This document shows positions 7,416 through 47,773 of a DNA stretch of 64,000 bases, in pieces. Numbering within the stretch: position 1 is the first letter of the stretch; each line of letters starts with the position of its first letter. The notes under the pieces are model-generated. The model was not told the origin of the DNA and ran no database searches. It saw nothing but the letters and a program-made list of their open reading frames with translations. The position numbers were made by a program, and so were the translations under genes. The stretch is from Chthonomonas sp. (GTDB lineage: Bacteria > Armatimonadota > Fimbriimonadia > Fimbriimonadales > Fimbriimonadaceae): NCBI GenBank assembly GCA_016788585.1, contig JAEURP010000007.1, positions 1-64,000 of the forward strand, read 5' to 3'.

Positions 7416-7417
7416 GC

Positions 7418-8665: not shown

Positions 8666-8685
8666 CTCAGATTGAACGTTCTTAG

Positions 8686-9216: not shown

Positions 9217-9236
9217 GTCACGACATAATTGTTTTC

Positions 9237-11305: not shown

Positions 11306-11366
11306 GATCGTATTTTGGACGGCTCACAAGATTGCCGGGAAACATGGAATAGAAAATCTGTAAGGA

Positions 11367-20863: not shown

Positions 20864-22209
20864 CAGTCCGAAAGTGTACTAGGTTGCTCAGTCTGCCGCG
20901 CTGCTACCAATCCCATGGCTAAACCCGCGATCGCGGCGACGGCTGAAGCGATCAATATTCCGAGTTTGGCGGGCCCAAGCAATGTCCCGTCCTTAAAGGC
21001 AAGCATCGCGATGAACATGGACATCGTAAACCCAATTCCCGCGAGCAATCCAGCCGAACAAAGCCAAAGCCATGAGACGCCAGCGGGAAGCCGGCTCAAG
21101 CCGAGTTTCACCGTCAGCAAACTGGCGCCAATGATTCCGACGGGCTTTCCCGCGACCAATGCAAGCGCAATCCCAAACATGACCGATTGGCTCTCTGCAC
21201 CTGCCCCGTTCGTATTGATCACCACACCGGCATTGGCGAGGGCGAACAGCGGCATGATGACGTAGGCCATCCAAGGGTGAATCGCCATCTGCGCTCTAAC
21301 CACCGGCGGCAGGAGCTCGCGTTGAGCCACTCGCAACTGCTTCAAGCGCGAGGCCATGCGGCTCTCATCGTCGGTGTGGTCCGAGTCGAAGAGTCGCTTA
21401 GTGGCGCGAACGACGATATCCATTGGATTCTCGCGCAGTTGCATCGATCGCACGGGGGTGATCAGGCCGAGCGTAACGCCTGCTAACGTAGGATGGACAC
21501 CTGCCCAATACAAGCCAGACCATGTGACCAAGCCCGGAATCACATAAGCCAACGCTGCCCCTGTCCCGATGCGCTGCAATCCAAGAACCAACAAAATTCC
21601 GAGTCCTGCCACCAAGAACCCGATGGCATTCAGACCCGACGAGTAGAAGAGCGCGATCACCAGCACGGCGATGATGTCGTCGATGATCGCGAGCGCGAGC
21701 AAAAAGACCCGCGCATTCGATGGGACTCGCTTACCCAAAAGAGCTAGAATCCCAACCGCAAAGGCGATATCCGTCGCCGTTGGAATCGCCCAGCCCGCCC
21801 GCTTGGCAGGATCAGCATTCATGGCAACGTAAATCAAGGCCGGAACAGCAACGCCACCCACCGCTGCCGCAAGAGGCAAGATGGCTTGCTTGGCGTCGCT
21901 CAACGCCCCTTCATGGATTTCGCGCCGAATCTCCATGCCGACGACTAGGAAGAAGATGGTCATCAACCCATCGTTGATCCAGAAGTGAAGGGACCGGTTG
22001 AACTCAAATGTCCCGACCTGAATGCCAATCGGCATATGCCAAAAGTCGTGATACGAGCCAGACCAAGGGGAGTTGGCCCAAAACAAAGCCGCGATTGCCG
22101 CGACCAGAAGGACCACGCCGCTAGCCGCCTCCACATGCAGGAAGCGCTCTAAGGTTCCAAAGGCGCGCTCGGCAAGGCGTTGGGCTCGGGGCAGATTCGT
22201 CTCGGGCAT
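20863..22209 (-). CDS. nhaA: Na+/H+ antiporter NhaA
   Basis: 448 aa polytopic membrane protein with NhaA-typical ALAIIDDI...conserved Asp pair and 12-TM layout. Confidence 0.85.
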
Positions 22210-22305
22210 AGGATTCCTCGCGCGGCGGCCCGACCAACGCTATCCTGCCCGCCAAGGGCGGACACCCAAACTCTAACTTACCTCTTTTTTGGTCAGCTCC
22301 AATGG

Positions 22306-22332
22306 TTGACATATGATACACATGTCTACTAT
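22306..22332 (+). promoter_or_regulatory. Sigma-70-like promoter candidate for the phage head module (TTGACA-15-TACTAT)
   Basis: Direct reading; spacer slightly short (15 nt). Confidence 0.3.
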
Positions 22333-22344
22333 TGCTATGTTCGC

Positions 22345-23163
22345 ATGACAATGACCCAAAACATTCTTAATCGCCGCGCGGCTGCTGCTGGCCCAGGCTA
22401 TCTCGGCGCGCGGAGCCATCTCGATGACCTTCGTCGCCAGAATCTCGTCCAAGAGTTCCGCGACGCCGGCCAAGATCCGCCCGACTATCTTCAACAAGCC
22501 CACGACTGGATCGAGAGGGAAGCCAAGCTCTTCGAAGCCGGCGACTTTCCCGACAAAGGCGTGAGCATCACCCAAGAAGACCTGAAGGAAATTGAATCCG
22601 AGTTCGATCTGCCGGTCCCGGTGCTGATCGAGCACGCTCAGAACCCTCTCGAACTCGGCTACCTTACTGCGGTTCGGGCCGAAGGCAACGAACTCTTCGG
22701 AACGGTGGCACTGACACCCGAGGCCGACGCCCTCATCCGTCGTTGCGGCGCAAAGTCGCTTTCCCTCGGTCTAACACCCGACCTCAAAGCGATTCGCGAG
22801 GTCAGCCTCGTGCAAAACCCGCGCATCAGCGACGCCCAACTCTTCCGCGCCGGACACCTCCTTCCCTCAATCAATGCCGAGGCGCACACCGAGAAGATGG
22901 TCCGCGAGGGCCGCTTGCTCCCGAGCCAGGCTCCCTTCGCCAAAGCGCTCCTGGAGTGCCCGAAATCGGTCGAGTTCGAGGGCGCGATGAAGCCGGTTCA
23001 GCAACTCATCATCGAGTTCCTCAATCGCATGCCGTGCTTCAAGCTCTACGGCGCGGTCGCTCCCGCCAGCATCGTCAACAGCACCCTCACCAACGAGGAG
23101 CTCGACTTCTATCAACGCTACTTCCCGGGCCTCAAGCCGGAAGACATTCTCCAACACAGATAA
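22345..23163 (+). CDS. Phage prohead protease (HK97/S78-like; Mu gpI-like) with C-terminal scaffold-like extension
   Basis: DLPVPVLIEHAQNPLELGYLTAVRAEGNELFGTVALT matches the vpvl.nHd...iG......ed.GL motif of HK97-family prohead proteases; helical C-terminal half; ATG at 22345 avoids overlap with nhaA. Confidence 0.6.
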   Translation: MTMTQNILNRRAAAAGPGYLGARSHLDDLRRQNLVQEFRDAGQDPPDYLQQAHDWIEREAKLFEAGDFPDKGVSITQEDLKEIESEFDLPVPVLIEHAQNPLELGYLTAVRAEGNELFGTVALTPEADALIRRCGAKSLSLGLTPDLKAIREVSLVQNPRISDAQLFRAGHLLPSINAEAHTEKMVREGRLLPSQAPFAKALLECPKSVEFEGAMKPVQQLIIEFLNRMPCFKLYGAVAPASIVNSTLTNEELDFYQRYFPGLKPEDILQHR

Positions 23164-23167
23164 GAAA

Positions 23168-23608
23168 ATGCCAGCCCTATCAAAACCCTTTGAATCCCTC
23201 GAAAGGCCCGGTCTCGTGGTCTCCTACAAGCTCTCCAATGTCGCCGTTTGGAAGGGCGCGCTACTCGGCGTCAATAGCAGCGGCTTCGCCGTGCCCATGG
23301 CGCATGGCACGGCGAACCTCCGGTTCATCGGCGTCGCTAACGAGTCGGTGAACAATGCCTCGGGCAGCGCCGGCGATAAGTCGGTGAATGTCACGAAAGC
23401 GGGTTCGTTCGTCTTCACACCGAACTCCGGCTATACCCCGGCCCAAGGCGATCTCGGCGCGGAAGTTTACGCTGTGAACGATAACCAAGTCCAAATCGTG
23501 ACGACCGGCCTGACCTCCGCCTACAAGATCGGCACGGTCAGCGCCCTCGAAACGACCTCCACTGGCAGCGCGGGCGTCCGCGTTCGCATCGACCGCTACT
23601 CCCTCTAA
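23168..23608 (+). CDS. Phage head-associated protein (decoration or scaffold candidate), function unknown
   Basis: 146-aa Gly/Ser/Thr/Val-rich beta-type protein encoded between protease and major capsid gene, same strand, 4-nt spacing. Confidence 0.4.
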   Translation: MPALSKPFESLERPGLVVSYKLSNVAVWKGALLGVNSSGFAVPMAHGTANLRFIGVANESVNNASGSAGDKSVNVTKAGSFVFTPNSGYTPAQGDLGAEVYAVNDNQVQIVTTGLTSAYKIGTVSALETTSTGSAGVRVRIDRYSL

Positions 23609-23614
23609 ACCACT

Positions 23615-24529
23615 ATGCCACTTACCAGAAGCGATATTCCTGAGCTTATGCTTGCCGGTCTCAAGACCGAATTCGACCTTGCCTACCGCGCCCAAGTCTC
23701 GAACAGCGCGGTCGAGCAGATCGCGACCGTCATCTCGACCACGCTGCCCGTGCAGAAGTACGGCTGGCTCGGCTTCTCGCCGCCGATGCGCGAGTTCATT
23801 GACGAACGCCAGCCGCTCGGCCTTTCCTCGCAATCCACCTCGATCGAGGACAAGGTTTTCGAGTCCACCCTCGCCGTTCAGCGCAAGGCGATCGAGGACG
23901 ACCAGTTCGACCTCATCCGCCTGCGCATCCAAGAGATGGCGTCGCGCGTGGCCCTGCACCGTCACCAGATGGTTGTCGAGTCGCTCGCCAATGGCAATGC
24001 CGGCACGATTTACGACGGCAATGCCTACTTCGCCGAGCGCACGGTGGGCGCGAACACCTTCTCGAACCTCTCGACCGATGCGCTCGATGCAACAGCAATC
24101 CGTGATGCGGTGAGTGCAATGATGAGCGTGCGCGACGAGACCAACTCGCCGATGGGCATCACGCCCGACACGCTGCTCGTCGGCCCCAGCCTCATGTGGA
24201 CGGCGATGGAGCTCGTGCAGAGCCCGGTCGTGGTCTCCGGCGGCGCCGCGCCGAGCTATCTCAATGTCTTCCAAGGCAAGCTCAAGGTCATCGTCTCGCC
24301 CTTCCTCACCGGCGACCACGCTGACAAGTGGTTTGTGCTCGACACCAGCCGCCCCGTCCGCCCGATCATCATGCAACAGCGCAGCGACGTTCCGGTGGAG
24401 TTCACCGCCCTCGAATCAGGCTCGGGTTCGGAGTCCGCTTTCATGCGCGATCTCTACATGTACGGCGTGCGCGGGCGATACAACGTCGGCTACGGCCTAT
24501 GGCAACTCGCCTACGGCGGTGGTTTCTGA
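23615..24529 (+). CDS. Major capsid protein, Mu gpT-like (HK97 fold)
   Basis: 304 aa; overall resemblance to Mu-like prophage major head subunit gpT (PF10124) by eye, including the characteristic C-terminal ...YGLWQ...GGGF end; follows the prohead protease. Confidence 0.65.
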   Translation: MPLTRSDIPELMLAGLKTEFDLAYRAQVSNSAVEQIATVISTTLPVQKYGWLGFSPPMREFIDERQPLGLSSQSTSIEDKVFESTLAVQRKAIEDDQFDLIRLRIQEMASRVALHRHQMVVESLANGNAGTIYDGNAYFAERTVGANTFSNLSTDALDATAIRDAVSAMMSVRDETNSPMGITPDTLLVGPSLMWTAMELVQSPVVVSGGAAPSYLNVFQGKLKVIVSPFLTGDHADKWFVLDTSRPVRPIIMQQRSDVPVEFTALESGSGSESAFMRDLYMYGVRGRYNVGYGLWQLAYGGGF

Positions 24530-24786
24530 TGAATGTGGACCTCACCGTTCTGCTGGGCGGGGTGGTCACGGGAATCTTGGCATTGGCTCGCATCACGTTG
24601 AACCAGCACAAGGCTCTTGTGGATCGCTTCGTCTCGTTCGTTGAGGCTTCCGTGAGGCGGCAAGAAACTTCGGCCGAGCAGGTCGCGCAAGCGTTGCGCG
24701 ACCTGGCCGAGGGCACTCGGGAGAATACGATGACCTTGCGCCGAATGGGCGAACAGCTCGGCGTCCACTTTCGCAAGGGGGCGTAA
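24529..24786 (+). CDS. Small single-TM protein in capsid module
   Basis: 85 aa, ATG overlaps capsid-gene stop (TGATG); TM helix LTVLLGGVVTGILALARI followed by charged helix. Confidence 0.45.
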   Translation: MNVDLTVLLGGVVTGILALARITLNQHKALVDRFVSFVEASVRRQETSAEQVAQALRDLAEGTRENTMTLRRMGEQLGVHFRKGA

Positions 24787-25188
24787 ATGGCGCTATCAGT
24801 CCTGGTCGCCGATATTCAGGCGCGCGCCAACGTCCACGACTCAGCTTACGAGACTGAGATTGATGAGGTTGTGGCGCGCCTCCTGCCCGTCGTCTCCTAC
24901 GCGCTTCGTCCGGAGGCTCTTGCCTCCGGCGACGCCGGGCTGCAGGCCGTGCTTGATGATGGAGCCGCCGACGTGATCGCGGGCACGTTCCTGGCTCAAC
25001 ATTACCGCCGCCCGGAGCTGCTGCTGTCGGTCATCGTCGGCGACCTCCAACTCTTCCCCCGCCGATTTGAAAGTGTTGCCGACCCAAGCGGTTTGATCGC
25101 CCAAGGTTGGCTCAAGCTAAAGCCCTGGCTCAAGCCCGACTCCACAGCCCCTGTCCTCGCCGCGAGCGGCAAAGGAGTTCCGTCATGA
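24787..25188 (+). CDS. Phage head-tail connector (gp6-like adaptor) candidate
   Basis: 133 aa; N-terminal LVADIQARANVHDSAYETEIDEVVARLLPVV resembles gp6-like connector N-termini; translationally coupled (TAAATG). Confidence 0.35.
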   Translation: MALSVLVADIQARANVHDSAYETEIDEVVARLLPVVSYALRPEALASGDAGLQAVLDDGAADVIAGTFLAQHYRRPELLLSVIVGDLQLFPRRFESVADPSGLIAQGWLKLKPWLKPDSTAPVLAASGKGVPS

Positions 25189-25493
25189 GTGTCCTCATCG
25201 AGCGTCTGTCCGACTCGCTGGAAGTCTTCGGCGAGCCGATTTTGATCGAAGACGAACCTGCCCAAGCCTTCGTCCGCGTCTACTCGGCCGCCGAAGCGCG
25301 CCTCTATCTTGAAGAAGCCGTCATCACCGCCGCCTCCCGCCCCATCCGCGGCTTCTTCGTCTTAGCTGATACCGTCGCGGCCATCGGCAATACGATCGAA
25401 TGGCTTGGCGAAACCTACGAAATCGCCTTCATCCGCCGCTACCGCATCAGCGGCGCGGACGTGGGACTGGGCCTGATCGCAGTCCTACCGTAG
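25185..25493 (+). CDS. Small phage head-completion-like protein
   Basis: 102 aa, ATGA overlap with upstream gene; last gene of the module. Confidence 0.35.
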   Translation: MSVLIERLSDSLEVFGEPILIEDEPAQAFVRVYSAAEARLYLEEAVITAASRPIRGFFVLADTVAAIGNTIEWLGETYEIAFIRRYRISGADVGLGLIAVLP

Positions 25494-25626
25494 CTCCCTC
25501 CTCTCCCCTTGCGGGAGAGGAAGTTCGAGGAGTTCCGCGCGATAGCAAGGGAAGCTCGAACAGGAGAGGGGTTTCTCGCTTTGACCTCACCCCTAACCCC
25601 TCTCCTCCGCCACCCGCTACCCGCGA
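25494..25626. terminator. Two GC-rich hairpins between convergent capsid module and gspE-like gene (bidirectional termination region)
   Basis: cctctcccc-ttgc-gggagagg and aggagagggg...cccctctcct inverted repeats read directly. Confidence 0.45.
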
Positions 25627-26892
25627 TCACGCCATCGCTTGCGTATGCACCGCCCGAATCACCTCATCCGGAACCGTCCACCCGTTCAGAACCTTGTACT
25701 TGCCGTCCTCCAGCATGGTTCTAAAGCCTTGCTTTTTGGCCGCTTCGTCAATCGCGACATAGGAACCGCCCGAGGCGATCGCATGCTTGAAGTCGAGCGT
25801 GCCCATGAGGAGCTCGAAAACACCAACACGGCCCTTGAGACCAGTGCCGCGGCACTCGGCGCAGCCTTTGCCCTTCGCGCACTTGGCGCGCTCTAAATCG
25901 GCGGGCGTGATGCGAAGCATCTTAATCTCGTCTTCGGTGAGCTTGTAGGGCTCAAGGCACTTCTGACAGTTCAAGCGGATGAGCCGCTGAGCCAGAATCG
26001 CGACGGTGACGCCGGCGATGAGATACGGCTCCGCGCCCATGTCCACCATACGCCCGATGGTCTCCATCGAGTTATTGGTGTGGAGCGTGCTGAGGACCAA
26101 GTGGCCGGTAAGCGCGGCTTGTATGCCAATCGCGAGCGACTCGGGGTCGCGCATTTCGCCGACCATCATCACGTCGGGGTCTTGGCGAAGGAACGACCGC
26201 ATGACGCGAGGGAAGGGAAGCTTCTCGGTCACCTGCACCTGACCGACGTCCTTGTCGAATTCGTATTCGATTGGGTCTTCGACCGTCACAATGTTGCGCG
26301 TCTTGCTGTCCAGCGTAAGCAGGGAAGCGTAGAGCGTCGAGGTCTTGCCGCTACCCGTCGGGCCGGTGACCAAAACCAGGCCATAGGGAACCGAGATCGC
26401 CTTCTGCCAATTGCGCAAGAGATCCTCGGGCATGCCGAGCTTGAGAAGGTCGACCTTCATTGCGCCCGGGTCGAGAATACGCATGACGATCTTCTCGCCG
26501 TTCAGACAGGGCACACACGAGCACCGGGCCGAGAGCCGCCGCCCCATGAACTCCATGTCGATACGGCCGTCCTGCGTCTCGCGATTCTCGTCAATCCGCA
26601 TGCCAGCCGCCAGCTTAAGCCGCGCGACGACGTTCATCGCATGCTCGGGAGGCAACTGACCGCCGTCAATCAGGATGCCGTCTTGGCGGAAACGAATCTT
26701 GAGCTGATCACGCTCTGGCTGAAGGTGAATATCGCTCGTGCCCATTTCGAGGGCTTGGATGAAGATATTGTCAACGATACCGACCGCCAACGACATCTCA
26801 TCGCCGCCCATATCGCGGGCGCTACCGGCTTCTCGAAGAACGAGCCGGAACTTCTTCCCGGCTCCATAGTTAAAGCTGTCGTTGTACGTCAT
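25627..26892 (-). CDS. GspE/PilB-family secretion ATPase (lacks N1 domain; has C-terminal CxxC...CxxC zinc motif)
   Basis: Walker A GPTGSGKTST, Asp/His boxes, tetracysteine CQKC...CAEC; 421 aa. Confidence 0.85.
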   Translation of the reverse strand: MTYNDSFNYGAGKKFRLVLREAGSARDMGGDEMSLAVGIVDNIFIQALEMGTSDIHLQPERDQLKIRFRQDGILIDGGQLPPEHAMNVVARLKLAAGMRIDENRETQDGRIDMEFMGRRLSARCSCVPCLNGEKIVMRILDPGAMKVDLLKLGMPEDLLRNWQKAISVPYGLVLVTGPTGSGKTSTLYASLLTLDSKTRNIVTVEDPIEYEFDKDVGQVQVTEKLPFPRVMRSFLRQDPDVMMVGEMRDPESLAIGIQAALTGHLVLSTLHTNNSMETIGRMVDMGAEPYLIAGVTVAILAQRLIRLNCQKCLEPYKLTEDEIKMLRITPADLERAKCAKGKGCAECRGTGLKGRVGVFELLMGTLDFKHAIASGGSYVAIDEAAKKQGFRTMLEDGKYKVLNGWTVPDEVIRAVHTQAMA

Positions 26893-27248
26893 GGCTTAAC
26901 GAAAAGGTACGCCGCGACGCACACGAGGAATCCTGCGAAGATCTTCCTCATGAGCGCAGGGTCGAGACCGAGCGCCAGTTTACTACCGGCATACGCTCCA
27001 CCGAACAGCCCCAGCGCGATCCATGCGCCCTTGAGGAGGTCAATCTGCTCCTTCTCCCAATAGTTCTTGACCGCGAGGAGCCCAACGGGCGCCAGCAACA
27101 CGATCAAACTCGTGCCTTGCGCCTTCTGCTGGGTCATCTGAAAAGCAAAAATCAGGAGCGGCACAATGATGATGCCGCCCCCGATTCCAAAGAGTCCGCT
27201 GCTTACGCCCGCCACAAGGCCGATCAGCACACAGAGAAAAATCTCCAT
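26889..27248 (-). CDS. Half-size TauE/SafE (TSUP, DUF81) membrane protein
   Basis: 119 aa, 4 TM; GLFGIGGGIIIVPLL motif; 4-nt overlap with gspE-like start. Confidence 0.6.
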   Translation of the reverse strand: MEIFLCVLIGLVAGVSSGLFGIGGGIIIVPLLIFAFQMTQQKAQGTSLIVLLAPVGLLAVKNYWEKEQIDLLKGAWIALGLFGGAYAGSKLALGLDPALMRKIFAGFLVCVAAYLFVKP

Positions 27249-27271: not shown

Positions 27272-28867
27272 TTACTCGTCAATAGCGCCGAAGTTGGCGA
27301 TGATGATGTCGATATCGCCAGCATCGACTTCACCGCTAACATCTACATCGGAGTTTGGATTGCCATTACCGACGGGCCAAATCGCGCCGAAGTCGGCGAT
27401 GACTTGATCGATGTCGGCGGCGTCCACTTCGCCAGAGGTGTCGACGTCCCCATTAACAAGTGCCACTGCACCGATATTGATATCGGTCGGAGTCGCGCTA
27501 CCAGGAACGGTTACGTTGACGGTCTTCTTCAAGAAAGAAGCCCCGTCGAACACAATCGTGTATTGGTTCGTCGCCCCAGCCGGAGGTACGTTTGGCAAGA
27601 TCACGCGAACCGACGACGAGGTCGAAGCTGTGCCAACCAAGAGGCCGCCATGAGTGATTGGCATTACGCCAGAGAAGACTTGATAGGTGATCGCTCTCTG
27701 ATAGGCCATCGCACCCACATCTTGAAGGTTGACCGTCCCCACAAAGTCCTGTCCCTGCACAGCGATGCCCAAAGCAATATTGCTAATACGGGATGGGCTG
27801 ACAGCTCCTTGAGTTCCGACCGGTCCAGAGACCGCAGTCGACGTTCCCGGCGCCGTGGATCGCCACAGGTTGTGGGTGCTCGAGCCTACGTGAGGGTTAG
27901 CATAGACGGCCCCAATTCCATTCAACTGTGCTGCCGTCGTGGCCGTGGTGGCTCCCCCATTGTTGTACTGCTGCCCCATCCAGAATGTCTGATCGGTTGG
28001 GACCGTTGGAAACGCCGTGCTGACACCGGTTCGCCAAACAAAGCTACCCGCGGTATGGGATGAAACATAGGTGTGTCCCGTGAGCCATGTCCCTGGGTCG
28101 AAAACTCCCGTCGGACCAGGGGTCCCAGTTCCCTGCAAATGGAAGCGGATGAGGCTCTGGAAGGTGGCAGCGGCACCTGTTCGGGTCGCCCAGTTGACGG
28201 CTGTAATCTGCTGACCAGCGTAGCCTGGCATCGGAGTGACGTCATCGTAAATCGCGGTCGTATAGGCCGGCACATCCGCATCCTGCGCGCCGCCAAGTGC
28301 GGTCAGCGTTGTCTGCGTACCCGTCGCGTAGCACTGATAGATATAGAACCTTCCAGTTTGGACCGGTGACCCAACTGGGATCCCAGAGAGTTGGAAATCG
28401 ATGCCGGTCGTCGTGGCTTCTTCAGGATAAACGCCGCCGACTAGGGCCACGTCGTTCACGTACTCAAGGGTCCAGGTGGAGCCATTGAGAATAAAGCACC
28501 CTTTGAGGGTCGAGGCTGCTGTTCGAGTTCCTGGTGTTACCGGGCCATAGCTGTTGGTGAGACCAAACTCGTGGTATAGGGTCGGGTAATTGGCGTGCTT
28601 CAGTCGGACTTTCTTGGCAGAGGCAAGAGTGCCTGACCCATCGACGGTACCAGCGTGGACTGTTACAACATCGCCCAACACATAGCTGCTCCGTGCGGCC
28701 TGGGTAACGGAAGTGTTCCCGCTGAAGCCTGCCGGGCCCGAAAAGAAGCCAGCGGTCATGCGCCAGCCGTCGTTGGTTGCATTTGCAAGGCCAGGGATCG
28801 CGGTCGCAACGAGGCCTGCGACCAATGGCAGAGATCGATATCGAATAATCATAAGAGTCCGAGGCAT
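27272..28867 (-). CDS. Secreted beta-rich protein with C-terminal dockerin-type tandem Ca-binding repeat (paralogue A)
   Basis: Signal peptide; C-terminus VNGDVDTSGEVDAADIDQVIADFG...DVDVSGEVDAGDIDIIIANFGAIDE = two dockerin type-I-like DxDxSGxVDxxDID loops. Confidence 0.65.
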   Translation of the reverse strand: MPRTLMIIRYRSLPLVAGLVATAIPGLANATNDGWRMTAGFFSGPAGFSGNTSVTQAARSSYVLGDVVTVHAGTVDGSGTLASAKKVRLKHANYPTLYHEFGLTNSYGPVTPGTRTAASTLKGCFILNGSTWTLEYVNDVALVGGVYPEEATTTGIDFQLSGIPVGSPVQTGRFYIYQCYATGTQTTLTALGGAQDADVPAYTTAIYDDVTPMPGYAGQQITAVNWATRTGAAATFQSLIRFHLQGTGTPGPTGVFDPGTWLTGHTYVSSHTAGSFVWRTGVSTAFPTVPTDQTFWMGQQYNNGGATTATTAAQLNGIGAVYANPHVGSSTHNLWRSTAPGTSTAVSGPVGTQGAVSPSRISNIALGIAVQGQDFVGTVNLQDVGAMAYQRAITYQVFSGVMPITHGGLLVGTASTSSSVRVILPNVPPAGATNQYTIVFDGASFLKKTVNVTVPGSATPTDINIGAVALVNGDVDTSGEVDAADIDQVIADFGAIWPVGNGNPNSDVDVSGEVDAGDIDIIIANFGAIDE

Positions 28868-28928
28868 TGGATAGCCTGAAGTTCTTTATACAGGACTCTT
28901 TCTAAAATCGCTAACTTTTAGTCGAAAA

Positions 28929-30044
28929 TTACTCGTCTACGGCACCGAAATTGGCAATCACCAGATCAATGTCCGCCGCGTCCACTTCGCCACTGAGGTC
29001 GAGATCGGCGAATTCGTTGCCTACGCCAGGAAAGACCTGCCCAAACGAGGCGATGACTTCATCGATGTCGGCGGCATCCACTTCTCCTGAACCGTCGACA
29101 TCGCCATTGGTTAGCGCGACAGTTCCAATATCAATCGACTCTGGCATCACACTAGGCGGCACCGGTACCTGCACCAAGATAGTCTTGTGCAGGAAGGGCT
29201 GCCCGCCAATTCGGATAGAAATAGGGTTTGTAGTACCCGTTGGCAATACGGCTGGAACGGTAAGCCAAAACGCATCTGTCGCCGCCAAGTTGCTCATGCT
29301 AATCGCTTCCGAGGCGAACGTGACGCTTCCCGAAATCGCCGTGACTTGGATGGTACGCCCATGGGCCATGGGCGTGATCACATCGTTCAGCGTGATACGG
29401 CCATGAAAGTCCTGCCCAGGGATACCCAACGACAGAGCGAGATTCCCGTATTCGTAGGCTCCGGGGGGATTGTTGCTGTAGATGAGATCTGAGGCTGCGC
29501 TACTGCGAAAGACGTTCGCATCCGAGGTGCCGCGAGCAACCGTGCCCGGCATGATCCCCATCTCATTGAGCTGGGATACCGTTGCCATGCCATTTCCGTT
29601 GGAATCATTGTCGAGGGCAATGCCAACATAGAACTTCGAGGCAGGTACAGACAAGTCCCCACCGGCCGTGCTGAAGATGGCGTTTTCTGTCGAGTAACCG
29701 GCCATCCGAATAGCATCCCCGGTGAAGGCGGTGGTTCCCAGGTAGGTGCCCAGGGTAGAGCCTGGCCCGTTGGCCTCCCAGAACCGAATCCTCGGGCGAA
29801 AGCTCACATCGGCAAGATTGTAATTGTAAAACGTGGAGGCGATTGCTGTGACTTCGCGACCTGCATAAAGGCTCATCGCCGTAACATCGTCGGCGAGCGT
29901 TTTGGTGATTGGAGTGGTCCCGGATTGGGCAAACGAGGGGTACAAGCAGTCGTCGGCCATGGGCTCAGACTGATAGACCCAATAGGGAGACTGGGCCAGC
30001 CCAATCGCTGGCAACACACACAAGCTCAGTAGAAGCAGTCGCAT
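28929..30044 (-). CDS. Secreted protein with C-terminal dockerin-type repeat (paralogue B)
   Basis: Signal peptide MRLLLLSLCVLPAIGLAQ (ATG 30044; alternative TTG 30086); C-terminal TNGDVDGSGEVDAADIDEVIASFG...DLDLSGEVDAADIDLVIANFGAVDE. Confidence 0.65.
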   Translation of the reverse strand: MRLLLLSLCVLPAIGLAQSPYWVYQSEPMADDCLYPSFAQSGTTPITKTLADDVTAMSLYAGREVTAIASTFYNYNLADVSFRPRIRFWEANGPGSTLGTYLGTTAFTGDAIRMAGYSTENAIFSTAGGDLSVPASKFYVGIALDNDSNGNGMATVSQLNEMGIMPGTVARGTSDANVFRSSAASDLIYSNNPPGAYEYGNLALSLGIPGQDFHGRITLNDVITPMAHGRTIQVTAISGSVTFASEAISMSNLAATDAFWLTVPAVLPTGTTNPISIRIGGQPFLHKTILVQVPVPPSVMPESIDIGTVALTNGDVDGSGEVDAADIDEVIASFGQVFPGVGNEFADLDLSGEVDAADIDLVIANFGAVDE

Positions 30045-30091
30045 CTGAAAAAGGTTCAACGAAATCCTTTGCACCGATCGTGCCAAAGATT

Positions 30092-30117
30092 GGGGGCGTC
30101 ACAGTAATGACGCCCCC
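30092..30117 (-). terminator. Rho-independent terminator candidate after paralogue C (GGGGGCGTCA-loop-TGACGCCCCC, T-stretch on minus strand)
   Basis: Perfect 10-bp stem read directly; followed by AATCTTT on the coding strand. Confidence 0.5.
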
Positions 30118-30174
30118 AAGATCAATTAAGTTCAAGCTGGGGCTAGTCTCAGGACTGAAACCCCAGTTCAAACA

Positions 30175-31344
30175 TCAAACGTCGTCGACAGCGCCGAAGT
30201 TGGCAATAACGATGTCGATATCTGCAGCATCCACTTCACCATTGATGTCGCAGTCGGAATTAGCAGCTGCATCGGTTTCCGCAGAGATCACGGCACCGAA
30301 GTCAGCGATCACCTGATCGATGTCAGCCGCGTCGACTTCACCCGAGCCATCGCAGTCGCCATTTGTCAACGCAACATCGGGAACCACGATTGCAACGGGA
30401 GCATCGTTCGGAGCTGCTGGAATCGTCACGTCGAACTTTCGCTTCAAGAACTGACCGCCGTCCATGGTGATGGTGACGGGGTTTGAGGCGCCAATAGGGA
30501 GGCGAGCTGGGCATCGTATGGCCAATGCACCTACGTTTGGACCTGCAGCAGCATAGGTGAAGATGTAGTAACCGGCAAGAATAACATTGCCGGCAGCAAC
30601 CGTAATGTTAATGGTCTTGGCATAGGCGGGCGAAACTACGTCGTTCATCGTCATGTTGAAGTTGTAGTTTTGCGACATCAGACCAAAGTCCATATCCAAC
30701 GTGTCGCCAGCTGGAAGGAGGCTCTGTACGCCATTTCCTGCTACGATCGCTTGGAACCAGCTACCTGGGGTGTTGGTGGTGTAGATCGCATCGGTGCTCG
30801 GCGCGAAGAACCCCGAGTTAGCAACCGCCTTTCCTAATGCCATTAGGTTGAGGTCTGCATCAGTGGCACCGGTCGTGTTGGCATTGTTGTCATACACCCA
30901 ACCCGCCCAGAACTTTCCGCTCGCTGGAACCAACACGTTGTTGGCGACCGTTGGAGCAAATGCATAGTAGTTGTTGCCGGGAACAAAGGAAATCGCCGCA
31001 AACGAGAAGCCGGGGCCTAAGGTTGCAGGATCGTTAATGCCAGTTGGTCCAACAGTTGTTCCGTCAGCTTGGTGCATGCGGTATCGAGGGCGGCAGCTAA
31101 TCGCCGCGCCACCAGTGTTTACCGTGTTCCAAGCGATATAGCGAATTGGCTGACCTGCCCACATAGGATCGATATTGATGTCGTCGGTGACGTACTTCGT
31201 GATCGGGCCCGCACCAGCAACGGCGCCGCCATTAATGACCGATCCGTTGGTCGCCCCTACAGCGGAAACGTAAAAGACGCCCTGAGCGTGCGCAAGGCTC
31301 CCAATAAGGAGTGCGCCCAAAGCGGTTAGAGTGAGTTTGTTCAT
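30175..31344 (-). CDS. Secreted protein with C-terminal dockerin-type repeat (paralogue C)
   Basis: Signal peptide MNKLTLTALGALLIGSLAHAQ with GAGGA RBS; C-terminal TNGDCDGSGEVDAADIDQVIADFG...DCDINGEVDAADIDIVIANFGAVDDV. Confidence 0.65.
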   Translation of the reverse strand: MNKLTLTALGALLIGSLAHAQGVFYVSAVGATNGSVINGGAVAGAGPITKYVTDDINIDPMWAGQPIRYIAWNTVNTGGAAISCRPRYRMHQADGTTVGPTGINDPATLGPGFSFAAISFVPGNNYYAFAPTVANNVLVPASGKFWAGWVYDNNANTTGATDADLNLMALGKAVANSGFFAPSTDAIYTTNTPGSWFQAIVAGNGVQSLLPAGDTLDMDFGLMSQNYNFNMTMNDVVSPAYAKTINITVAAGNVILAGYYIFTYAAAGPNVGALAIRCPARLPIGASNPVTITMDGGQFLKRKFDVTIPAAPNDAPVAIVVPDVALTNGDCDGSGEVDAADIDQVIADFGAVISAETDAAANSDCDINGEVDAADIDIVIANFGAVDDV

Positions 31345-31550: not shown

Positions 31551-32972
31551 GTGAGTCTACGGATCAATACAAACATTACGGCCCTCAGCGCGTTGCGCAG
31601 CCTCAACAGCACAACTGAGGCGATGAGCCGACAGATTTCGCGCCTGAGTACGGGCCTGCGAATCAACAATGCCGCCGACGACCCGGCTGGCCTGATCATC
31701 AGCGAAAACCTGCGCACCCAGATGCTCGGTATCGACCAGGCCACCCGCAATGCCCAGGACGCCGTAAACATGGCCAAGACAGCCGAAGCCGCCCTGGAAG
31801 AGGTTCAGACCCTCATCCGCAACATGCGCGGCCTCGCCGTCCACTCGGCGAATACCGCGGTTGTGGACGCCAATATGCTTCAGGCTAACCAAGCGCAGAT
31901 TCGAAACGCCATTCAATCCATCAACCGAATTGCCTCGCAAACCAGTTGGGGCACCCGCCAACTCCTCGATGGCTCCGCCGGCGCCCAGGCCAACGTGACC
32001 AATGGCGCCGCTGTGGGCAGCATTTATATGGGTGGGATGTTCAATGGCGAGTCGGTGGCAACCGGCCCAATCACCATGACCCGGGTGACCGCGGGTGAGC
32101 GCGCCGCCGTCAGCCTCGGCAACACATTCGCCAGCGTTAACGCAATCGTTCCGACCCCGGGCGCTTTCGTCATCAATGGCTTCAGCTTCAGCACAGACGG
32201 TGCAGAGTCGGTCCAATCGCTCCTCGCGAAGATCAACGCCATGTCGAGTTCGACGGGGGTCACCGCGCAGTTCAATGGCGGTTCGATCCAACTGACCGCC
32301 GGCGAGTTTGGCTCTAGGCATGCAGTGAACTTCTTTGATCCCTCGAACATCCTGCACACGGCCAGTAGCGCGACTGATACGGGAGTGGATGCAGTGTTCG
32401 ATGTTTCGATGAACACGGACGCCGGCATTCAAACCGCGACGTTCACCGGCGACGGCCTACGATTGCGCGATGGCTACGGCAACATCATCTTGCTCACGGA
32501 GCAAGGCAATGCCACGGCTGGTGTTCAATCCGTCGGAATGATGACCGCCGGATCGGTTAACTTCCACATCGGAGCAGGTTCAAATCAGTCGGTTGCTTAT
32601 TCGCTGCCCAATGCCTACGCGAACCGCCTCGGCACTGGCGTCATCGCGAACATGGACCTTTCGCAAGTCGATGTGACCACCCAAACGGGCGCACAACAGG
32701 CAATTCAAATCATTGATGCCGCAGTGTCCCAACTCGGTCAATGGCGAGGCGATCTCGGTTCGTTTCAGGTCAACTTCCTTGAGTCAACGATCCGGTCACT
32801 CGGCGTAGTCAAAGAAAACCTAGCCGCCTCCGAGAGCCAAATCCGTGACGCAGACATGGCGATGGAGATGACCAGCTACACGAAGTACCAAATCCTGCAG
32901 CAAAGTGGCATGGCAATGTTGGCTCAAGCGAATCAAGCCCCTACAAATGTTCTGCAACTCCTCCAACAATAG
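31551..32972 (+). CDS. fliC: Flagellin
   Basis: N-terminal LRINTNITALSALRSLN...LSTGLRINNAADDPAGL and C-terminal conserved flagellin D0/D1 segments; GTG start. Confidence 0.9.
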   Translation: MSLRINTNITALSALRSLNSTTEAMSRQISRLSTGLRINNAADDPAGLIISENLRTQMLGIDQATRNAQDAVNMAKTAEAALEEVQTLIRNMRGLAVHSANTAVVDANMLQANQAQIRNAIQSINRIASQTSWGTRQLLDGSAGAQANVTNGAAVGSIYMGGMFNGESVATGPITMTRVTAGERAAVSLGNTFASVNAIVPTPGAFVINGFSFSTDGAESVQSLLAKINAMSSSTGVTAQFNGGSIQLTAGEFGSRHAVNFFDPSNILHTASSATDTGVDAVFDVSMNTDAGIQTATFTGDGLRLRDGYGNIILLTEQGNATAGVQSVGMMTAGSVNFHIGAGSNQSVAYSLPNAYANRLGTGVIANMDLSQVDVTTQTGAQQAIQIIDAAVSQLGQWRGDLGSFQVNFLESTIRSLGVVKENLAASESQIRDADMAMEMTSYTKYQILQQSGMAMLAQANQAPTNVLQLLQQ

Positions 32973-35362: not shown

Positions 35363-36139
35363 TCAATCACATAGTGAATACCAGGTGCCCGTCCAAGCAT
35401 TCGGGTCATTCGAAGCCTCACCAGAGCGCCGGCCTTCCGGGTTTACGCGCTGCTCATCAAACTTTCCCGCGCCGGTCGTCGCCCTCGCGCTGCCGTCGGC
35501 GAAGATCACGGTCCCTCCAATTGAGCTCCAGCGGCGGAAATAGTCGCCTGGAGCAGGGCAGTCGTAGCCGTAACGATCGCATGCGGTTGCTACCACCTGG
35601 CGCGAAAAGAAGGGCATCATCTCTGTGCGCATCATTCGCGTGTTGCTGGGTTCCTCCATGCTTCCCAAGGTCACTGCGCGGTTAAAATCGAGAACGTAGC
35701 CATTCTGAACCGAGTAATTTTGGGCCACTGTAAAGACGCAGCTGGTGAACCGGTAAGAAGTGCCATACGCTTCGAAGTACGACTTCTTGCCGCGAAGCCA
35801 AGCAGGAAGGGTCGACCGGTTTAGGTAAGGGCCCCCCGCGTCGGTTGGACTGCCGAAGATCTGCTTGTTCTTGGCGTAGGGAAGCACCCATACCTCGACA
35901 CCGCGGTGCAATGGCCCCGGAGGATTGATCTCGTCATACGCCGAGAAGATCGGCATGCCGTCGTCATTGTCGCTCGTGTACATCATCGTCGCGATGCCAA
36001 TTTGCCGGCCATTGCTGAGGCAAGCCGTTCGCTTGGCCGCTTCTCTGGCTTGCGCGAAGACAGGGAAGAGAATGGCCGCGAGAATCGCGATGATCGCGAT
36101 CACGACCAGAAGCTCGATAAGGGTGAATGCTCGTTTCAT
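35363..36139 (-). CDS. DUF1559 (H-X9-DG) protein with prepilin-type N-terminal cleavage/methylation domain
   Basis: [29 protein letters not shown]-terminus; C-terminal [12 protein letters not shown] (H-X9-DG-type motif). Confidence 0.8.
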
Positions 36140-42806: not shown

Positions 42807-44039
42807 ATGTCTAAGTTTTGGGTTTCGTGCCTCTGTGTTTGTGCCACGCTCTCGGCCAGCGCGATCGGGCCGCGCGTTGCCATCGTTGCCGCTGCCACCA
42901 ACACGGCTAACGAACAAACGAACACTCGCTTCACCGATCCACGCGATATGCTCGTAAATGACGGTCGTTTCAGTAGCGTGACGATTATCAGCACCACACA
43001 GTACGGTGGTGGCTTTACGCCGACCCTTATCGACCTCCTTCAATATGACGCGATCCTCCACTGGACCAATGACTCGAACGAAGACAGCGTCGGCCTGGGC
43101 AATAGCTTTGCTGACTATGTGGACGCAGGAGGCGGCGTAGTCGTGTCGGTTTTTGCTAACACTTCGACCAATGTCATGCGTTACCTGCGCGGTCGATGGC
43201 AGACCGGAAATTACGAGATCATTCCCGCCGCAGGCACCCATACGGAAGGTCCGGTCGCCGGTACCCCGGGCACTGAGGGGTACATCCATATGGCAACGCC
43301 AATTGTTCCGGCTCACCCCATTTTCCAAGGAGTTGGCGACGTGCGGCTGTGGTGGAAGACGACGACTCAGGGTCTCCGCTGGGGCGCCCATCGACCCACA
43401 AATACCAACGTCCACCTTTGGGGGCAGAAAATCGCGCTGTGGGACGACGGTAAGACCGCGGTTGCCCTGCACAACGACCACCCCAACCGCGTGGATTTGG
43501 GCATTCACCCGGTGTCCGACGCCGTTGCATTAGCCTACTATGATCGCACAAGCGACGCTGGAAAGCTGATCGCGAACTCGCTTCTGTATTCGGCAGGAAT
43601 CGCGATTGCCGTTGATTTGAGCCTCGGCGATACGGTGAGCCCGATGGCGGCATCCCGCAGCATTGACTACACAGTAAAGCAAGGAGATATTGTTCGGAAG
43701 ATTGGGACGGTGCAATTACCTACGGTGCCAGAGGCTCCCGCAAGGATCTACCTGCTGCGATCACTGACCGGCCCAATCACGATCGAGTTCGATGGCGCCT
43801 CCTATCTTCGGAAGAAAGTGCACGCAGTTCATGCGGGCAGTGACCTGAATCTCGGACCCGTTGTATTGACGAACGGTGACCCTGACAATAGCGGTGAAGT
43901 CGATGCCGCTGATATTGACGCTGTCATTGCCAACTTCGGATCAACGAATGACGGTAGCACCGACGTGGACGCGTCTGGGGAAGTTGATGCCGCCGATATC
44001 GATATCGTGATTTCCAACTTTGGCAGCGTCAACGAATAA
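42807..44039 (+). CDS. Secreted ThuA/class-I-glutamine-amidotransferase-like protein with C-terminal dockerin-type repeat (paralogue D)
   Basis: N-terminal signal peptide; DAILHWTND...GGGVVVSVF ThuA-like; C-terminal TNGDPDNSGEVDAADIDAVIANFG...DVDASGEVDAADIDIVISNFGSVNE. Confidence 0.6.
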   Translation: MSKFWVSCLCVCATLSASAIGPRVAIVAAATNTANEQTNTRFTDPRDMLVNDGRFSSVTIISTTQYGGGFTPTLIDLLQYDAILHWTNDSNEDSVGLGNSFADYVDAGGGVVVSVFANTSTNVMRYLRGRWQTGNYEIIPAAGTHTEGPVAGTPGTEGYIHMATPIVPAHPIFQGVGDVRLWWKTTTQGLRWGAHRPTNTNVHLWGQKIALWDDGKTAVALHNDHPNRVDLGIHPVSDAVALAYYDRTSDAGKLIANSLLYSAGIAIAVDLSLGDTVSPMAASRSIDYTVKQGDIVRKIGTVQLPTVPEAPARIYLLRSLTGPITIEFDGASYLRKKVHAVHAGSDLNLGPVVLTNGDPDNSGEVDAADIDAVIANFGSTNDGSTDVDASGEVDAADIDIVISNFGSVNE

Positions 44040-47670: not shown

Positions 47671-47747
47671 GGGTGTGGGGTCTGGGGTGTAGGGTTTGGG
47701 GTGTGGGGTGTGGGGTGTGGGGTGTGGGGTATGGGGTATGGGGTATG
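47671..47747. repeat. G-rich heptamer tandem repeat (GGGTGTG/GGGTATG-type x11) between folB and metH-like gene; G-quadruplex-capable on plus strand
   Basis: Direct reading of 11 consecutive 7-mers each starting GGG(G). Confidence 0.9.
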
Positions 47748-47773
47748 GCGAGCGCGACCCCCCAACCCCAAAC

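What the first reader, a model, noticed from the sequence alone, without database searches (positions are those of the whole stretch)
27272..31344. Family of secreted proteins sharing a conserved C-terminal cassette ending in a tandem dockerin-type Ca-binding repeat
Three tandem minus-strand genes, plus a fourth paralogue at 42807-44039, have unrelated beta-rich or ThuA-like N-terminal bodies. All end with the same ~70-aa cassette: LP.G.tNP.tI..DG..FLKK...V.vP.......iG.VaLTNGD followed by two DxDxSGEVDAADID.VIANFG loops (dockerin type-I-like EF-hand pairs). This looks like a shared anchoring or sorting tag in a non-cellulosomal organism. No cohesin-like partner is recognisable in the window. 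The cassette may instead be a Ca-dependent surface-attachment or secretion signal.
Basis: seen in the sequence. Interest (0 to 1): 0.7.

Follow-up and report, generated by a model that had tools for sequence, protein, structure and literature searches.

The report
Dockerin docking tag on secreted proteins
Four secreted proteins of this Armatimonadota genome end in the same 150-170-residue module, a relative of the calcium-dependent "X-module plus dockerin" plug that clostridia use to fasten cellulosomes to the cell. Related genomes carry dozens of such proteins, which points to a non-cellulosomal surface-display system.

Summary
ORFs 27272-28867, 28929-30086 and 30175-31344 (all minus strand) and 42807-44039 (plus strand) are the only ORFs in the window with D.D.SGEVDAADID..I..FG loops, two each, at the extreme C-terminus.

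The shared cassette is about 150-170 aa, not about 70. It is a seven-stranded, CarboxypepD_reg-like beta module packed against a two-loop dockerin. By sequence profile and by predicted structure it matches one thing in the PDB: the X-module/type II dockerin dyad (XDoc) of clostridial scaffoldins.

The window comes from an Armatimonadota MAG. Relatives carry at least 16-49 XDoc-tagged, signal-peptide-bearing proteins each. Their N-terminal domains (cargo) are mostly lectin/CBM-like domains and some proteases, not cellulases.

The dockerin is held by purifying selection. Four cargo families exist in both XDoc-tagged and PEP-CTERM-tagged versions, two of them as adjacent paralogues, so XDoc behaves as a surface-localisation tag.

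The window has no cohesin. I found a candidate partner elsewhere: a roughly 155-aa cohesin-like domain (below Pfam's threshold) fused to PEP-CTERM, dockerin or XDoc tails.

Binding itself is inferred. I rate this a new variant of a known kind.

The parts
27272..28867 (-). Gene A, 531 aa: signal peptide, about 150-aa N-terminal extension, jelly-roll (CBM-like) domain, X module, dockerin
   Evidence: ORF. Pfam Dockerin_1 at residues 473-525. Cassette HMM at residues 369-531. Body paralogous to B and C.
27455..27769 (-). X module of A (seven-strand beta sandwich, CarboxypepD_reg-like)
   Evidence: Alignments A1 and A2, by homology to the modelled B cassette.
27275..27454 (-). Dockerin of A (two Ca-loop plus helix repeats)
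   Evidence: Loops at 27413-27448 and 27314-27349. Pfam Dockerin_1.
28929..30086 (-). Gene B, 385-aa ORF. The public annotation starts at MRLLLL, giving 371 aa (JNK63_03565). Signal peptide, jelly-roll CBM-like domain, X module, dockerin.
   Evidence: P0001, 100% identity. Models: N-terminal domain pLDDT 93.1, cassette pLDDT 94.6.
29109..29432 (-). X module of B
28932..29108 (-). Dockerin of B
   Evidence: Pfam Dockerin_1, 29.3-31 bits, above the cut-off. Helices at cassette residues 120-128 and 152-160.
30175..31344 (-). Gene C, 389 aa (JNK63_03570): signal peptide, jelly-roll CBM-like domain, X module (30364-30690), dockerin (30178-30363)
   Evidence: P0012.
42807..44039 (+). Gene D, 410 aa: signal peptide, weakly ThuA-like body, X module (43593-43871), dockerin (43872-44036)
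   Evidence: Its body is 43.8% identical over 256 aa to a PEP-CTERM protein at L070:18796-19635.
26889..27248 (-). TauE-like 119-aa membrane protein, 24 nt downstream of gene A. It is a conserved neighbour; whether it belongs to the system is not shown.
   Evidence: Pfam TauE, 78 bits. Same position in L001, L002 and L003.
25627..26892 (-). Type II/IV secretion ATPase (T2SSE, 421 aa), last gene of the same-strand run. It is a conserved neighbour; whether it belongs to the system is not shown.
   Evidence: Pfam T2SSE, 361 bits. 90-94% identical and syntenic in L001-L003.

Best explanation
**What it is.** The shared C-terminal cassette is an X-module/dockerin dyad (XDoc). A transthyretin-/CarboxypepD_reg-like seven-strand beta sandwich packs against a dockerin made of two Ca2+-binding loop-helix repeats. 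It is homologous to the type II XDoc at the end of clostridial scaffoldins.

**How it most likely works (inferred).** In this Armatimonadota lineage it serves as a general C-terminal tag.
1. Proteins are exported by their Sec signal peptides.
2. The Ca2+-loaded dockerin, stiffened by the X module, plugs non-covalently into a common receptor at the cell surface.
3. Dozens of lectin-like binding modules and some hydrolases are displayed this way.

**Likely receptor (less certain).** The best candidate is a newly noticed cohesin-like domain of about 155 aa. Relatives carry it on PEP-CTERM (exosortase) anchors. In the XDoc-rich genomes themselves it is fused to an XDoc, which would make it an adaptor.

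**Shown versus inferred.** Shown here: module identity, homology, C-terminal position, abundance, selection and tag swapping. Inferred: Ca2+ binding, docking, and the identity of the receptor.
For: **Module identity**
- Pfam Dockerin_1 matches all four proteins and 37 of 38 cassettes. CarboxypepD_reg matches the beta module, above its cut-off in L003:16664-19735.
- A cassette profile searched against PDB sequences puts six XDoc type II chains on top (2b59_B at E 8.9e-7; also 5k39_B, 3kcp_A, 4wi0_B, 4u3s_B, 5g5d_B). The alignments run through the X strands and both repeats.
- The layout matches the published XDoc: a 98-aa seven-strand X module resembling carboxypeptidase D domain II, followed by two F-hands (PMC5141474).

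**Behaviour as a tag**
- At most 8 residues follow the cassette in all 128 carriers found in the held DNA (0-3 in 123 of them) and in nearly all of the 120 database carriers.
- 110 of 128 carriers have signal-peptide-like N-termini.
- At least 49, 33, 26 and 16 distinct carriers occur in four related MAGs, counted only in the DNA fetched.
- An X-only profile finds just 421 proteins among 1.84 billion representatives. Every full-length X hit is followed by dockerin loops.

**Constraint**
- Among 112 cassettes the X module averages 28% pairwise identity and the dockerin 72%.
- Third codon positions at identical residues are only 45% identical, so this is purifying selection, not gene conversion.
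- The helix motif differs between lineages, as expected for a partner-specific interface.

**Tag swapping**
- Four cargo families occur with either XDoc or PEP-CTERM, two of them as adjacent paralogues: L011 7927-8907 with 9050-10450, and L009 9326-10438 with 10687-11409.

**Candidate receptor**
- hhalign of the family against cohesins gives probability 90.2 and E 1.5e-6. Controls give P of 0.04 or worse.
- 17 of 120 members hit Pfam Cohesin below threshold, one across HMM positions 7-119 of 139.
- 43 of the 120 carry PEP-CTERM by Pfam; the remainder mostly end in paired dockerin-like repeats (29 match Dockerin_1).
- Metagenomic proteins with two cohesin-like copies plus an anchor exist.
Against: - No binding, Ca2+ or localisation data exist. 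Everything here is computed.
- Pfam's Cohesin model finds nothing in 20 window proteins, in 25 PEP-CTERM proteins or in the 10 largest XDoc proteins.
- Cohesin HMMs built here find nothing significant in 5,917 ORFs from 1.2 Mb of lineage DNA.
- The cohesin-like family never reaches Pfam's cut-off (best 18.8 bits against 24.1). A profile search against PDB sequences did not return cohesins.
- In the five XDoc-rich genomes I found only the XDoc-fused form of that domain. The PEP-CTERM-anchored form was seen only in related metagenomic contigs (L070, L072), whose proteins are 40-64% identical to those of the MAGs.
- The inter-repeat linker is 8-14 residues, against 23 with a small helix in clostridial type II dockerins.
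- Both loops are canonical and near-identical, which is more like type I dockerins.
- The phylum is reportedly diderm (from my own knowledge, not tested here). If so, an unexplained outer-membrane crossing step is needed.
Confidence: 0.6

Rival explanations
1. The cassette is an export or sorting signal rather than a docking plug. A secretion or sorting machine (a type II secretion system or an exosortase-like system) recognises the folded XDoc in the periplasm, takes the protein across or into the outer membrane, and may cleave the tag.
For: - The cassette is strictly at the extreme C-terminus on dozens of Sec-exported proteins.
- It is interchangeable with PEP-CTERM, a known sorting signal.
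- The tandem XDoc genes are always followed by a T2SSE ATPase gene in four genomes.
Against: - The strongest conservation lies in the Ca2+ loops and helices that form the cohesin interface in known dockerins, and it differs by lineage.
- No known secretion system uses a dockerin as its signal (from my own knowledge).
- The synteny involves a single ATPase gene and was seen for only one cargo family.
Confidence: 0.15
2. The cassette has no protein partner. It is a Ca2+-stabilised structural stalk or spacer, an orphan dockerin of the kind found in many non-cellulosomal organisms, that only stabilises or spaces the N-terminal binding domain.
For: - No cohesin above threshold was found in the window or in 1.2 Mb of related DNA.
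- Non-cellulosomal dockerins are widely reported. Papers that cite Peer et al. 2009 treat them as possible adhesins or cellulosome-like parts. That many lack a known cohesin is from my own recollection of that review, which the library does not hold.
Against: - A passive spacer would not keep 72% identity in the dockerin while the adjoining X module drifts to 28% across more than 100 paralogues, with saturated synonymous sites.
- It would also not need to be at the extreme C-terminus, nor swap with an anchoring signal.
- A cohesin-like family with matching tails exists.
Confidence: 0.12
3. The cassette anchors proteins by binding a non-protein envelope component, such as exopolysaccharide, lipopolysaccharide or peptidoglycan, in a Ca2+-dependent way.
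For: - The tag swaps with PEP-CTERM.
- PEP-CTERM proteins are associated with exopolysaccharide production (from my own knowledge).
- The X module belongs to a fold often found next to carbohydrate-active domains.
Against: - There is no precedent for XDoc binding a glycan (from my own knowledge).
- The conserved surface is the dockerin helices, not the X module.
Confidence: 0.08

Closest known systems
Type II X-module/dockerin dyad (XDoc) of clostridial scaffoldins (C. thermocellum CipA/ScaA and CipB, A. cellulolyticus ScaA; PDB 2b59, 5g5d, 5k39, 4u3s, 3kcp)
   Same: - About 165 aa at the extreme C-terminus.
- A seven-strand X module resembling carboxypeptidase D domain II, packed on a two-F-hand dockerin.
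- Detectable sequence homology across both modules (E about 1e-6), with the same relative orientation in the model.
   Different: - It is found in an Armatimonadota lineage, a phylum I understand to be diderm and largely aerobic (my own knowledge, not tested here), rather than in anaerobic Firmicutes.
- It sits on dozens of cargo proteins per genome rather than on one or two scaffoldins.
- Cargo is lectin-like or protease, not cellulosomal.
- Both Ca2+ loops are canonical and near-identical.
- The linker is 8-14 residues instead of 23 with a helix.
- No canonical type II cohesin was found.
Enzyme-borne type I dockerins of cellulosomes (Pfam PF00404)
   Same: - A C-terminal tag on many secreted proteins.
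- Duplicated, near-symmetrical Ca2+ loop plus helix.
- The sequence is homogeneous within a genome.
   Different: - Type I dockerins have no X module (PMC5141474).
- Here the X module is obligatory: every X hit carries a dockerin.
Anchoring scaffoldins, that is cohesin plus a cell-wall anchor (SLH domains in C. thermocellum; sortase signal in R. flavefaciens ScaE, from my own knowledge)
   Same: The candidate partner family is a single cohesin-like module followed by a C-terminal sorting or anchor signal.
   Different: - The anchor is PEP-CTERM (exosortase) or IPTL-CTERM-like, not SLH or LPXTG.
- The module is only cohesin-like, below the Pfam cut-off.
- Binding is untested.
PEP-CTERM/exosortase sorting tags
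   Same: - A C-terminal tag on many secreted proteins of the same genomes.
- The same cargo families carry either tag.
   Different: - PEP-CTERM is a roughly 25-aa motif with a transmembrane helix and an Arg cluster.
- XDoc is a folded, soluble 160-aa two-domain module with no transmembrane segment.
Hypothetical 'planctosome' of freshwater Planctomycetes (PMC6461901)
   Same: Non-cellulosomal cohesin/dockerin modules proposed to assemble peptidases on the surface of a diderm bacterium.
   Different: - That model uses Pfam-recognisable cohesins on large multidomain proteins and bare dockerins.
- It involves neither an X module nor a PEP-CTERM link.

Membership tests
Dockerin (Pfam PF00404) | Match to the family HMM at or above the gathering score | tested here: met
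   B scores 29.3-31 bits against a cut-off of 22.9. C, D and A score 22.5, 20.6 and 18.7, just below it. 37 of 38 cassettes match at E<=1.
Dockerin (Pfam PF00404) | Two duplicated 12-residue Ca2+-binding loops (D/N at positions 1, 3, 5, 9, 12), each followed by a helix | tested here: met
   DxDxSGEVDAAD occurs twice in all four proteins. Helices are predicted directly after each loop. Loop columns are at least 90% conserved in 112 cassettes.
Dockerin (Pfam PF00404) | Ca2+-dependent binding to a cohesin | not testable with these tools
   This needs ITC or pull-down experiments with and without EDTA.
Type II XDoc dyad | An Ig-like, seven-strand X module immediately N-terminal to the dockerin | tested here: met
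Type II XDoc dyad | X module and dockerin form one rigid unit with the same mutual orientation as in 2b59/5g5d | tested here: met
Type II XDoc dyad | Sequence homology to known XDocs | tested here: met
   The profile search gives E 8.9e-7 to 1.9e-5 for six XDoc chains, aligned from the X strands to the last helix.
Type II XDoc dyad | About 23-residue inter-repeat linker with a small helix | tested here: not met
   The linker is 8-14 residues and no helix is predicted between residues 129 and 151.
Type II XDoc dyad | A cognate type II cohesin in the same genome | tested here: inconclusive
   No Pfam cohesin was found in 20 window proteins or 35 lineage proteins. Local type I and II cohesin HMMs found nothing significant in 1.2 Mb. 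Whole genomes could not be searched. A divergent cohesin-like family was found (see the next rows).
Cohesin (Pfam PF00963), for the candidate partner family A6/A8 | Match to the family HMM at or above the gathering score (24.1 bits) | tested here: not met
   The best scores are 18.8 and 18.4 bits (E 0.002-0.003). 17 of 120 members have sub-threshold hits in the same register, one spanning HMM positions 7-119 of 139. There was no hit for L068, L048 or L042 themselves.
Cohesin (Pfam PF00963), for the candidate partner family A6/A8 | Profile-profile similarity to known type I and II cohesins beyond controls | tested here: met
   hhalign gives probability 90.2 and E 1.5e-6 (A6), and probability 71.7 and E 3.5e-5 over 131 columns (A8). 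The controls were unrelated beta domains (P 0.067-0.2), reversed sequences (P 0.15) and 100 column shuffles (best P 0.042).
Cohesin (Pfam PF00963), for the candidate partner family A6/A8 | Nine-strand jelly-roll fold | not tested

The most novel reading that the evidence does not exclude
These Armatimonadota, and probably some Planctomycetota, run a complete non-cellulosomal cohesin-dockerin surface-display system. Single cohesin-like modules are fixed to the cell by PEP-CTERM/exosortase (or IPTL-CTERM) anchors. They hold dozens of XDoc-tagged lectin-like, protease and other cargo proteins. Cohesin-like-XDoc fusions act as adaptors or chain extenders. XDoc and PEP-CTERM are evolutionarily interchangeable ways to place the same cargo on the surface, one non-covalent and one via exosortase processing.
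Probability: 0.4. Interest if true: 0.75.

Novelty: new variant of a known kind. Interest (0 to 1): 0.6.

Why it matters
**Reach of the XDoc module.** XDoc dyads are known as the specialised plug that fastens clostridial cellulosomes to the cell wall. Here the same two-domain module is the general tag on at least 50 secreted, mostly non-enzymatic proteins per genome, in a distant phylum I understand to be diderm. That would show the cohesin-dockerin principle is a general bacterial surface-display mechanism, not a cellulosome speciality.

**A testable receptor.** Many 'orphan' dockerins in non-cellulosomal organisms have no known partner. This lineage offers a candidate receptor family (cohesin-like plus PEP-CTERM), which makes that open question directly testable.

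**A link to exosortase sorting.** The result connects cohesin-dockerin assembly to exosortase sorting. No paper in the searchable library mentions both terms.

**Possible tools.** Orthogonal, compact XDoc/cohesin-like pairs from mesophilic aerobes could also be useful parts for protein assembly.

Tried and rejected
**Cohesin searches that found nothing**
1. A cohesin in the window. Pfam on 20 window proteins, including every secreted protein of unknown function, found none.
2. A cohesin near XDoc genes in relatives.
   - I built type I and type II cohesin HMMs. The CipA sequences were verified against the PDB. The type II sequences came from Table S5 of PMC5141474.
   - hmmsearch and jackhmmer over 5,917 ORFs gave nothing significant. 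The weak top hits did, however, lead to the cohesin-like family.
3. PEP-CTERM proteins as hidden cohesins. Pfam on 25 of them found CHRD, DUF4394 and Spondin_N, but no cohesin.
4. Scaffoldin-like XDoc proteins. The 10 largest carry S8 protease, WD40, cadherin/He_PIG and lectin domains, but no cohesin.
5. Internal repeats. A self-BLAST screen of 560 proteins of 300 aa or more printed no hits. The screen was not validated on a positive control, so I give it little weight.
6. A profile of the cohesin-like family against PDB sequences returned no cohesin. The best hit was an IgA Fc receptor at E 0.057.

**Hypotheses rejected**
8. Gene conversion as the cause of dockerin uniformity. Synonymous sites are near saturation.
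9. Generic EF-hand or RTX motifs. EF-hand models hit fewer members and more weakly, and no RTX model hit.

**Searches that returned nothing useful**
10. NCBIfam has no family for any of the four proteins.
11. A look-up of the contig encoding P0001 failed.
12. The AFDB50 fold library was unavailable.
13. Literature searches for dockerin with Armatimonadetes, Armatimonadota or Fimbriimonas found nothing relevant.

Full report
**1. The observation**

The region holds three tandem minus-strand ORFs and a fourth on the plus strand:
- A: 27272-28867, 531 aa
- B: 28929-30086, 385 aa
- C: 30175-31344, 389 aa
- D: 42807-44039, 410 aa

A six-frame motif scan finds eight dockerin-type loops in the whole 64 kb. 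All eight are in these four ORFs, two per protein, ending 3-5 residues before the stop codon. Pfam Dockerin_1 matches all four. B is above the gathering score and the others fall just below it. All four start with Sec-type signal peptides.

- A, B and C are paralogues over their whole length, at 27-36% identity.
- The conserved C-terminal block is about 150-170 aa, not about 70.

**2. Where the window comes from**

B and C are identical to JNK63_03565 and JNK63_03570 of a MAG labelled Chthonomonas sp., phylum Armatimonadota. The closest genomes in the species collection are two 'Chthonomonas sp.' MAGs and two Fimbriimonadaceae MAGs.

**3. What the cassette is**

*Sequence families.*
- Of 38 diverse cassettes, 37 match Dockerin_1. 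Five also match CarboxypepD_reg over the preceding beta region.
- In a 1023-aa relative that match is above the gathering score, and it sits immediately next to the dockerin.

*Predicted structure.*
- An AlphaFold2 model of the B cassette, built on that alignment, is confident: pLDDT 94.6 and pTM 0.87.
- It shows seven strands followed by two loop-helix units.

*Comparison with solved structures.*
- The ten best Foldseek matches are all X-module/type II dockerin dyads of C. thermocellum CipA and A. cellulolyticus ScaA. They are aligned over both domains (171-177 columns, TM 0.65-0.72 normalised to the isolated XDoc chains, E 1e-9 to 2e-7).
- Independently of any model, a sequence profile of the cassette finds six XDoc chains as the top PDB hits (E 8.9e-7 to 1.9e-5). 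The alignments run from the X strands through both repeats.
- The published description of XDoc fits: 164 aa, made of a 98-aa seven-strand X module resembling carboxypeptidase D domain II plus two F-hands (PMC5141474).

*Differences.*
- The linker here is 8-14 residues rather than 23.
- Both loops are canonical and nearly identical.

I conclude that the cassette is a homologue of the XDoc dyad.

**4. The N-terminal bodies**

- The domain shared by A, B and C models confidently (pLDDT 93.1) as a beta jelly roll.
- D is only weakly ThuA-like.

**5. How the cassette is used**

*Position and abundance.*
- The cassette ends within 8 residues of the C-terminus in all 128 carriers found in 1.2 Mb of related DNA (within 3 in 123 of them), and in nearly all of the 120 database relatives.
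- 110 of those 128 have signal-peptide-like N-termini.
- Counting only the DNA fetched around 69 seed loci, the four related MAGs carry at least 49, 33, 26 and 16 distinct carriers.

*Cargo.* Most cargo has no Pfam annotation. The annotated cases are the following:
- Proteases and associated domains: M10, S8, PPC.
- Lectin-like and adhesion-type domains: DUF642, LamG, Laminin_B, CBM25, cadherin/He_PIG/C-type lectin.
- Others: GSDH, HpiC1-like, WD40 and PD40 propellers.

This is not a glycoside-hydrolase repertoire.

*Rarity.* An X-module-only profile finds just 421 proteins (E<=1e-3) among 1.84 billion representatives. Every full-length hit is followed by dockerin loops, so X and dockerin form an obligate pair.

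**6. Selection**

- Among 112 distinct cassettes the X module averages 28% pairwise identity. The dockerin averages 72%, and its loop and helix columns are at least 90% conserved.
- Among the eight repeats in the window, third codon positions at identical residues are only 45% identical. The uniformity is therefore purifying selection on the protein, not recent conversion.
- Other lineages carry the same X module with different helix motifs.

This pattern is what a shared, lineage-specific binding partner would produce. That reading is an inference.

**7. Tag swapping**

The same genomes also hold many PEP-CTERM proteins. There are 29 in the loci and two in the window, and none carries the cassette. 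Four cargo families occur in both versions:
- L011 7927-8907 (PEP-CTERM) lies next to 9050-10450 (XDoc), 48.6% identical over 317 aa. The same pair occurs in L059.
- L009 9326-10438 (XDoc) lies next to 10687-11409 (PEP-CTERM), 49% identical. The same pair occurs in L018 and L020.
- The body of window gene D matches a PEP-CTERM protein at L070 18796-19635, 43.8% identical over 256 aa.
- The fourth family is the cohesin-like domain described in the next section.

XDoc therefore occupies the same evolutionary slot as a known surface-sorting signal. This supports a localisation role, but it does not separate docking from sorting.

**8. The search for a partner**

*Negative results.*
- The window has no Pfam cohesin.
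- I built type I and type II cohesin HMMs. The CipA sequences were checked against the PDB. The type II sequences came from the supplement of PMC5141474.
- These HMMs gave no significant hit in 5,917 ORFs.

*The lead.* The three best weak hits were orthologous XDoc proteins (L068 9338-10465, L048 9422-10450, L042 3534-4520). Their roughly 155-aa N-terminal domain shows two cohesin-like motif blocks:
- VNLDF.PD.QTV.VGD.V.V.VYAVSD..NQGFSA.D..VTWDP..LNPIS
- T.VSMPA..GR.TR.FD

*Tests of cohesin likeness.*
- hhalign against ten cohesins gives probability 90.2 and E 1.5e-6.
- Unrelated beta domains, reversed sequences and 100 column shuffles give P of 0.04 or worse.
- A profile search finds 437 relatives.
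- The top 120 are secreted single-domain proteins of 190-285 aa. 43 end in PEP-CTERM. Most of the rest end in paired dockerin-like repeats, of which 29 match Dockerin_1.
- 17 members give sub-threshold Pfam Cohesin hits in the same register, one spanning HMM positions 7-119 of 139.
- With this larger family, hhalign aligns 131 columns at probability 71.7.

*Context.*
- PEP-CTERM versions 55-64% identical to the Fimbriimonadaceae domain lie on contigs from related organisms, L070 and L072.
- In L072 the gene follows two roughly 1000-aa proteins that carry dockerin pairs.
- Metagenomic proteins with two copies of the domain plus an IPTL-CTERM-like tail also exist.

*Caveats.*
- The family does not reach Pfam's cut-off.
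- PDB sequence search does not find cohesins.
- In the XDoc-rich MAGs I saw only the XDoc-fused form.

I put the chance that this domain is a true cohesin homologue at about 0.7. I put the chance that it is the receptor of the window's XDoc proteins at about 0.4.

**9. Neighbourhood**

- In the window and in L001-L003, the tandem XDoc genes (two or three copies) are followed after 22-40 nt by a 119-aa TauE-like membrane protein and a 421-aa T2SSE ATPase. Those two are 85-94% identical between genomes.
- No terminator-like site separates gene A from these two genes, although one lies inside the TauE-like gene.
- This may hint at how the proteins leave the periplasm. I did not follow it up.

**10. 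Comparison with what is known, and verdict**

- The module is a member of the dockerin family and a homologue of type II XDoc.
- Its use is new: a general cargo tag in a non-cellulosomal Armatimonadota lineage, interchangeable with PEP-CTERM, with a possible exosortase-anchored cohesin-like receptor.
- Papers that cite Peer et al. 2009 treat non-cellulosomal dockerins as known.
- No paper in the searchable library links dockerins with Armatimonadota or with PEP-CTERM.

I rate this a new variant of a known kind, with interest 0.6.

Noticed in passing
window 25627-27248 (-): A half-size TauE-like membrane protein (119 aa) and a T2SSE secretion ATPase (421 aa) follow the tandem XDoc genes after 24 nt. 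The order is conserved in L001, L002 and L003 even though the number of XDoc copies varies. They may form an operon linked to export.
   Followed up: partly
window 51652-52221 and 52420-52956 (+): Two small paralogous secreted proteins end in PEP-CTERM sorting signals (Pfam 23.7 and 30.7 bits). A homologue lies at L017:8516-9064. Their roughly 130-aa body has no family match.
   Followed up: partly
L068:9338-10465, L048:9422-10450, L042:3534-4520; P0228-P0348: A previously unannotated cohesin-like domain family of about 155 aa. It occurs with PEP-CTERM, dockerin or XDoc tails in Armatimonadota and Planctomycetota (Phycisphaerae). Pfam Cohesin hits are sub-threshold only.
   Followed up: yes
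L074:796-3741, L075:9875-12514, L077:9497-12598, L078:741-9695: Metagenomic proteins of 880-1030 aa have two cohesin-like domains and an IPATS-hydrophobic-RR tail (IPTL-CTERM-like). A 2984-aa protein combines the domain with dockerin-like pairs. These are scaffoldin-like architectures.
   Followed up: no
L072:3882-6911 and 6956-9856: Two paralogous proteins of about 1000 aa with C-terminal dockerin pairs lie directly upstream of a PEP-CTERM cohesin-like gene (10001-10600). Homologues occur at L010:10281-16470.
   Followed up: partly
window 4-136, 47671-47748, 58126-58152: Heptanucleotide tandem arrays: GGTCTAT x19, GGGTGTG x11 and AACACCG x4. The first two make spurious repetitive peptides at the starts of long ORFs.
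   Followed up: no
window 44127-45992 (+): A 621-aa secreted protein directly downstream of XDoc gene D has no Pfam or NCBIfam match.
   Followed up: partly
window 35363-36139 (-) and eight loci: A prepilin-type (type IV pilin/T2SS pseudopilin-like) N-terminal methylation-motif protein. Its paralogues form the largest family of secreted non-XDoc proteins near XDoc genes: eight members in the held DNA.
   Followed up: no
window 31551-32972 (+), 11367-12023 (+), 5328-5942 (-): Flagellar genes are scattered through the window: flagellin (divergent from gene C, also adjacent in L001), FliL, and a YcgR/PilZ-like protein.
   Followed up: no
window 22000-25500: G+C rises to 0.60-0.62 here, against about 0.56 elsewhere. 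The stretch holds overlapping ORFs on both strands and small conserved ORFs (24787-25493, also present in L001). Its nature was not examined.
   Followed up: no
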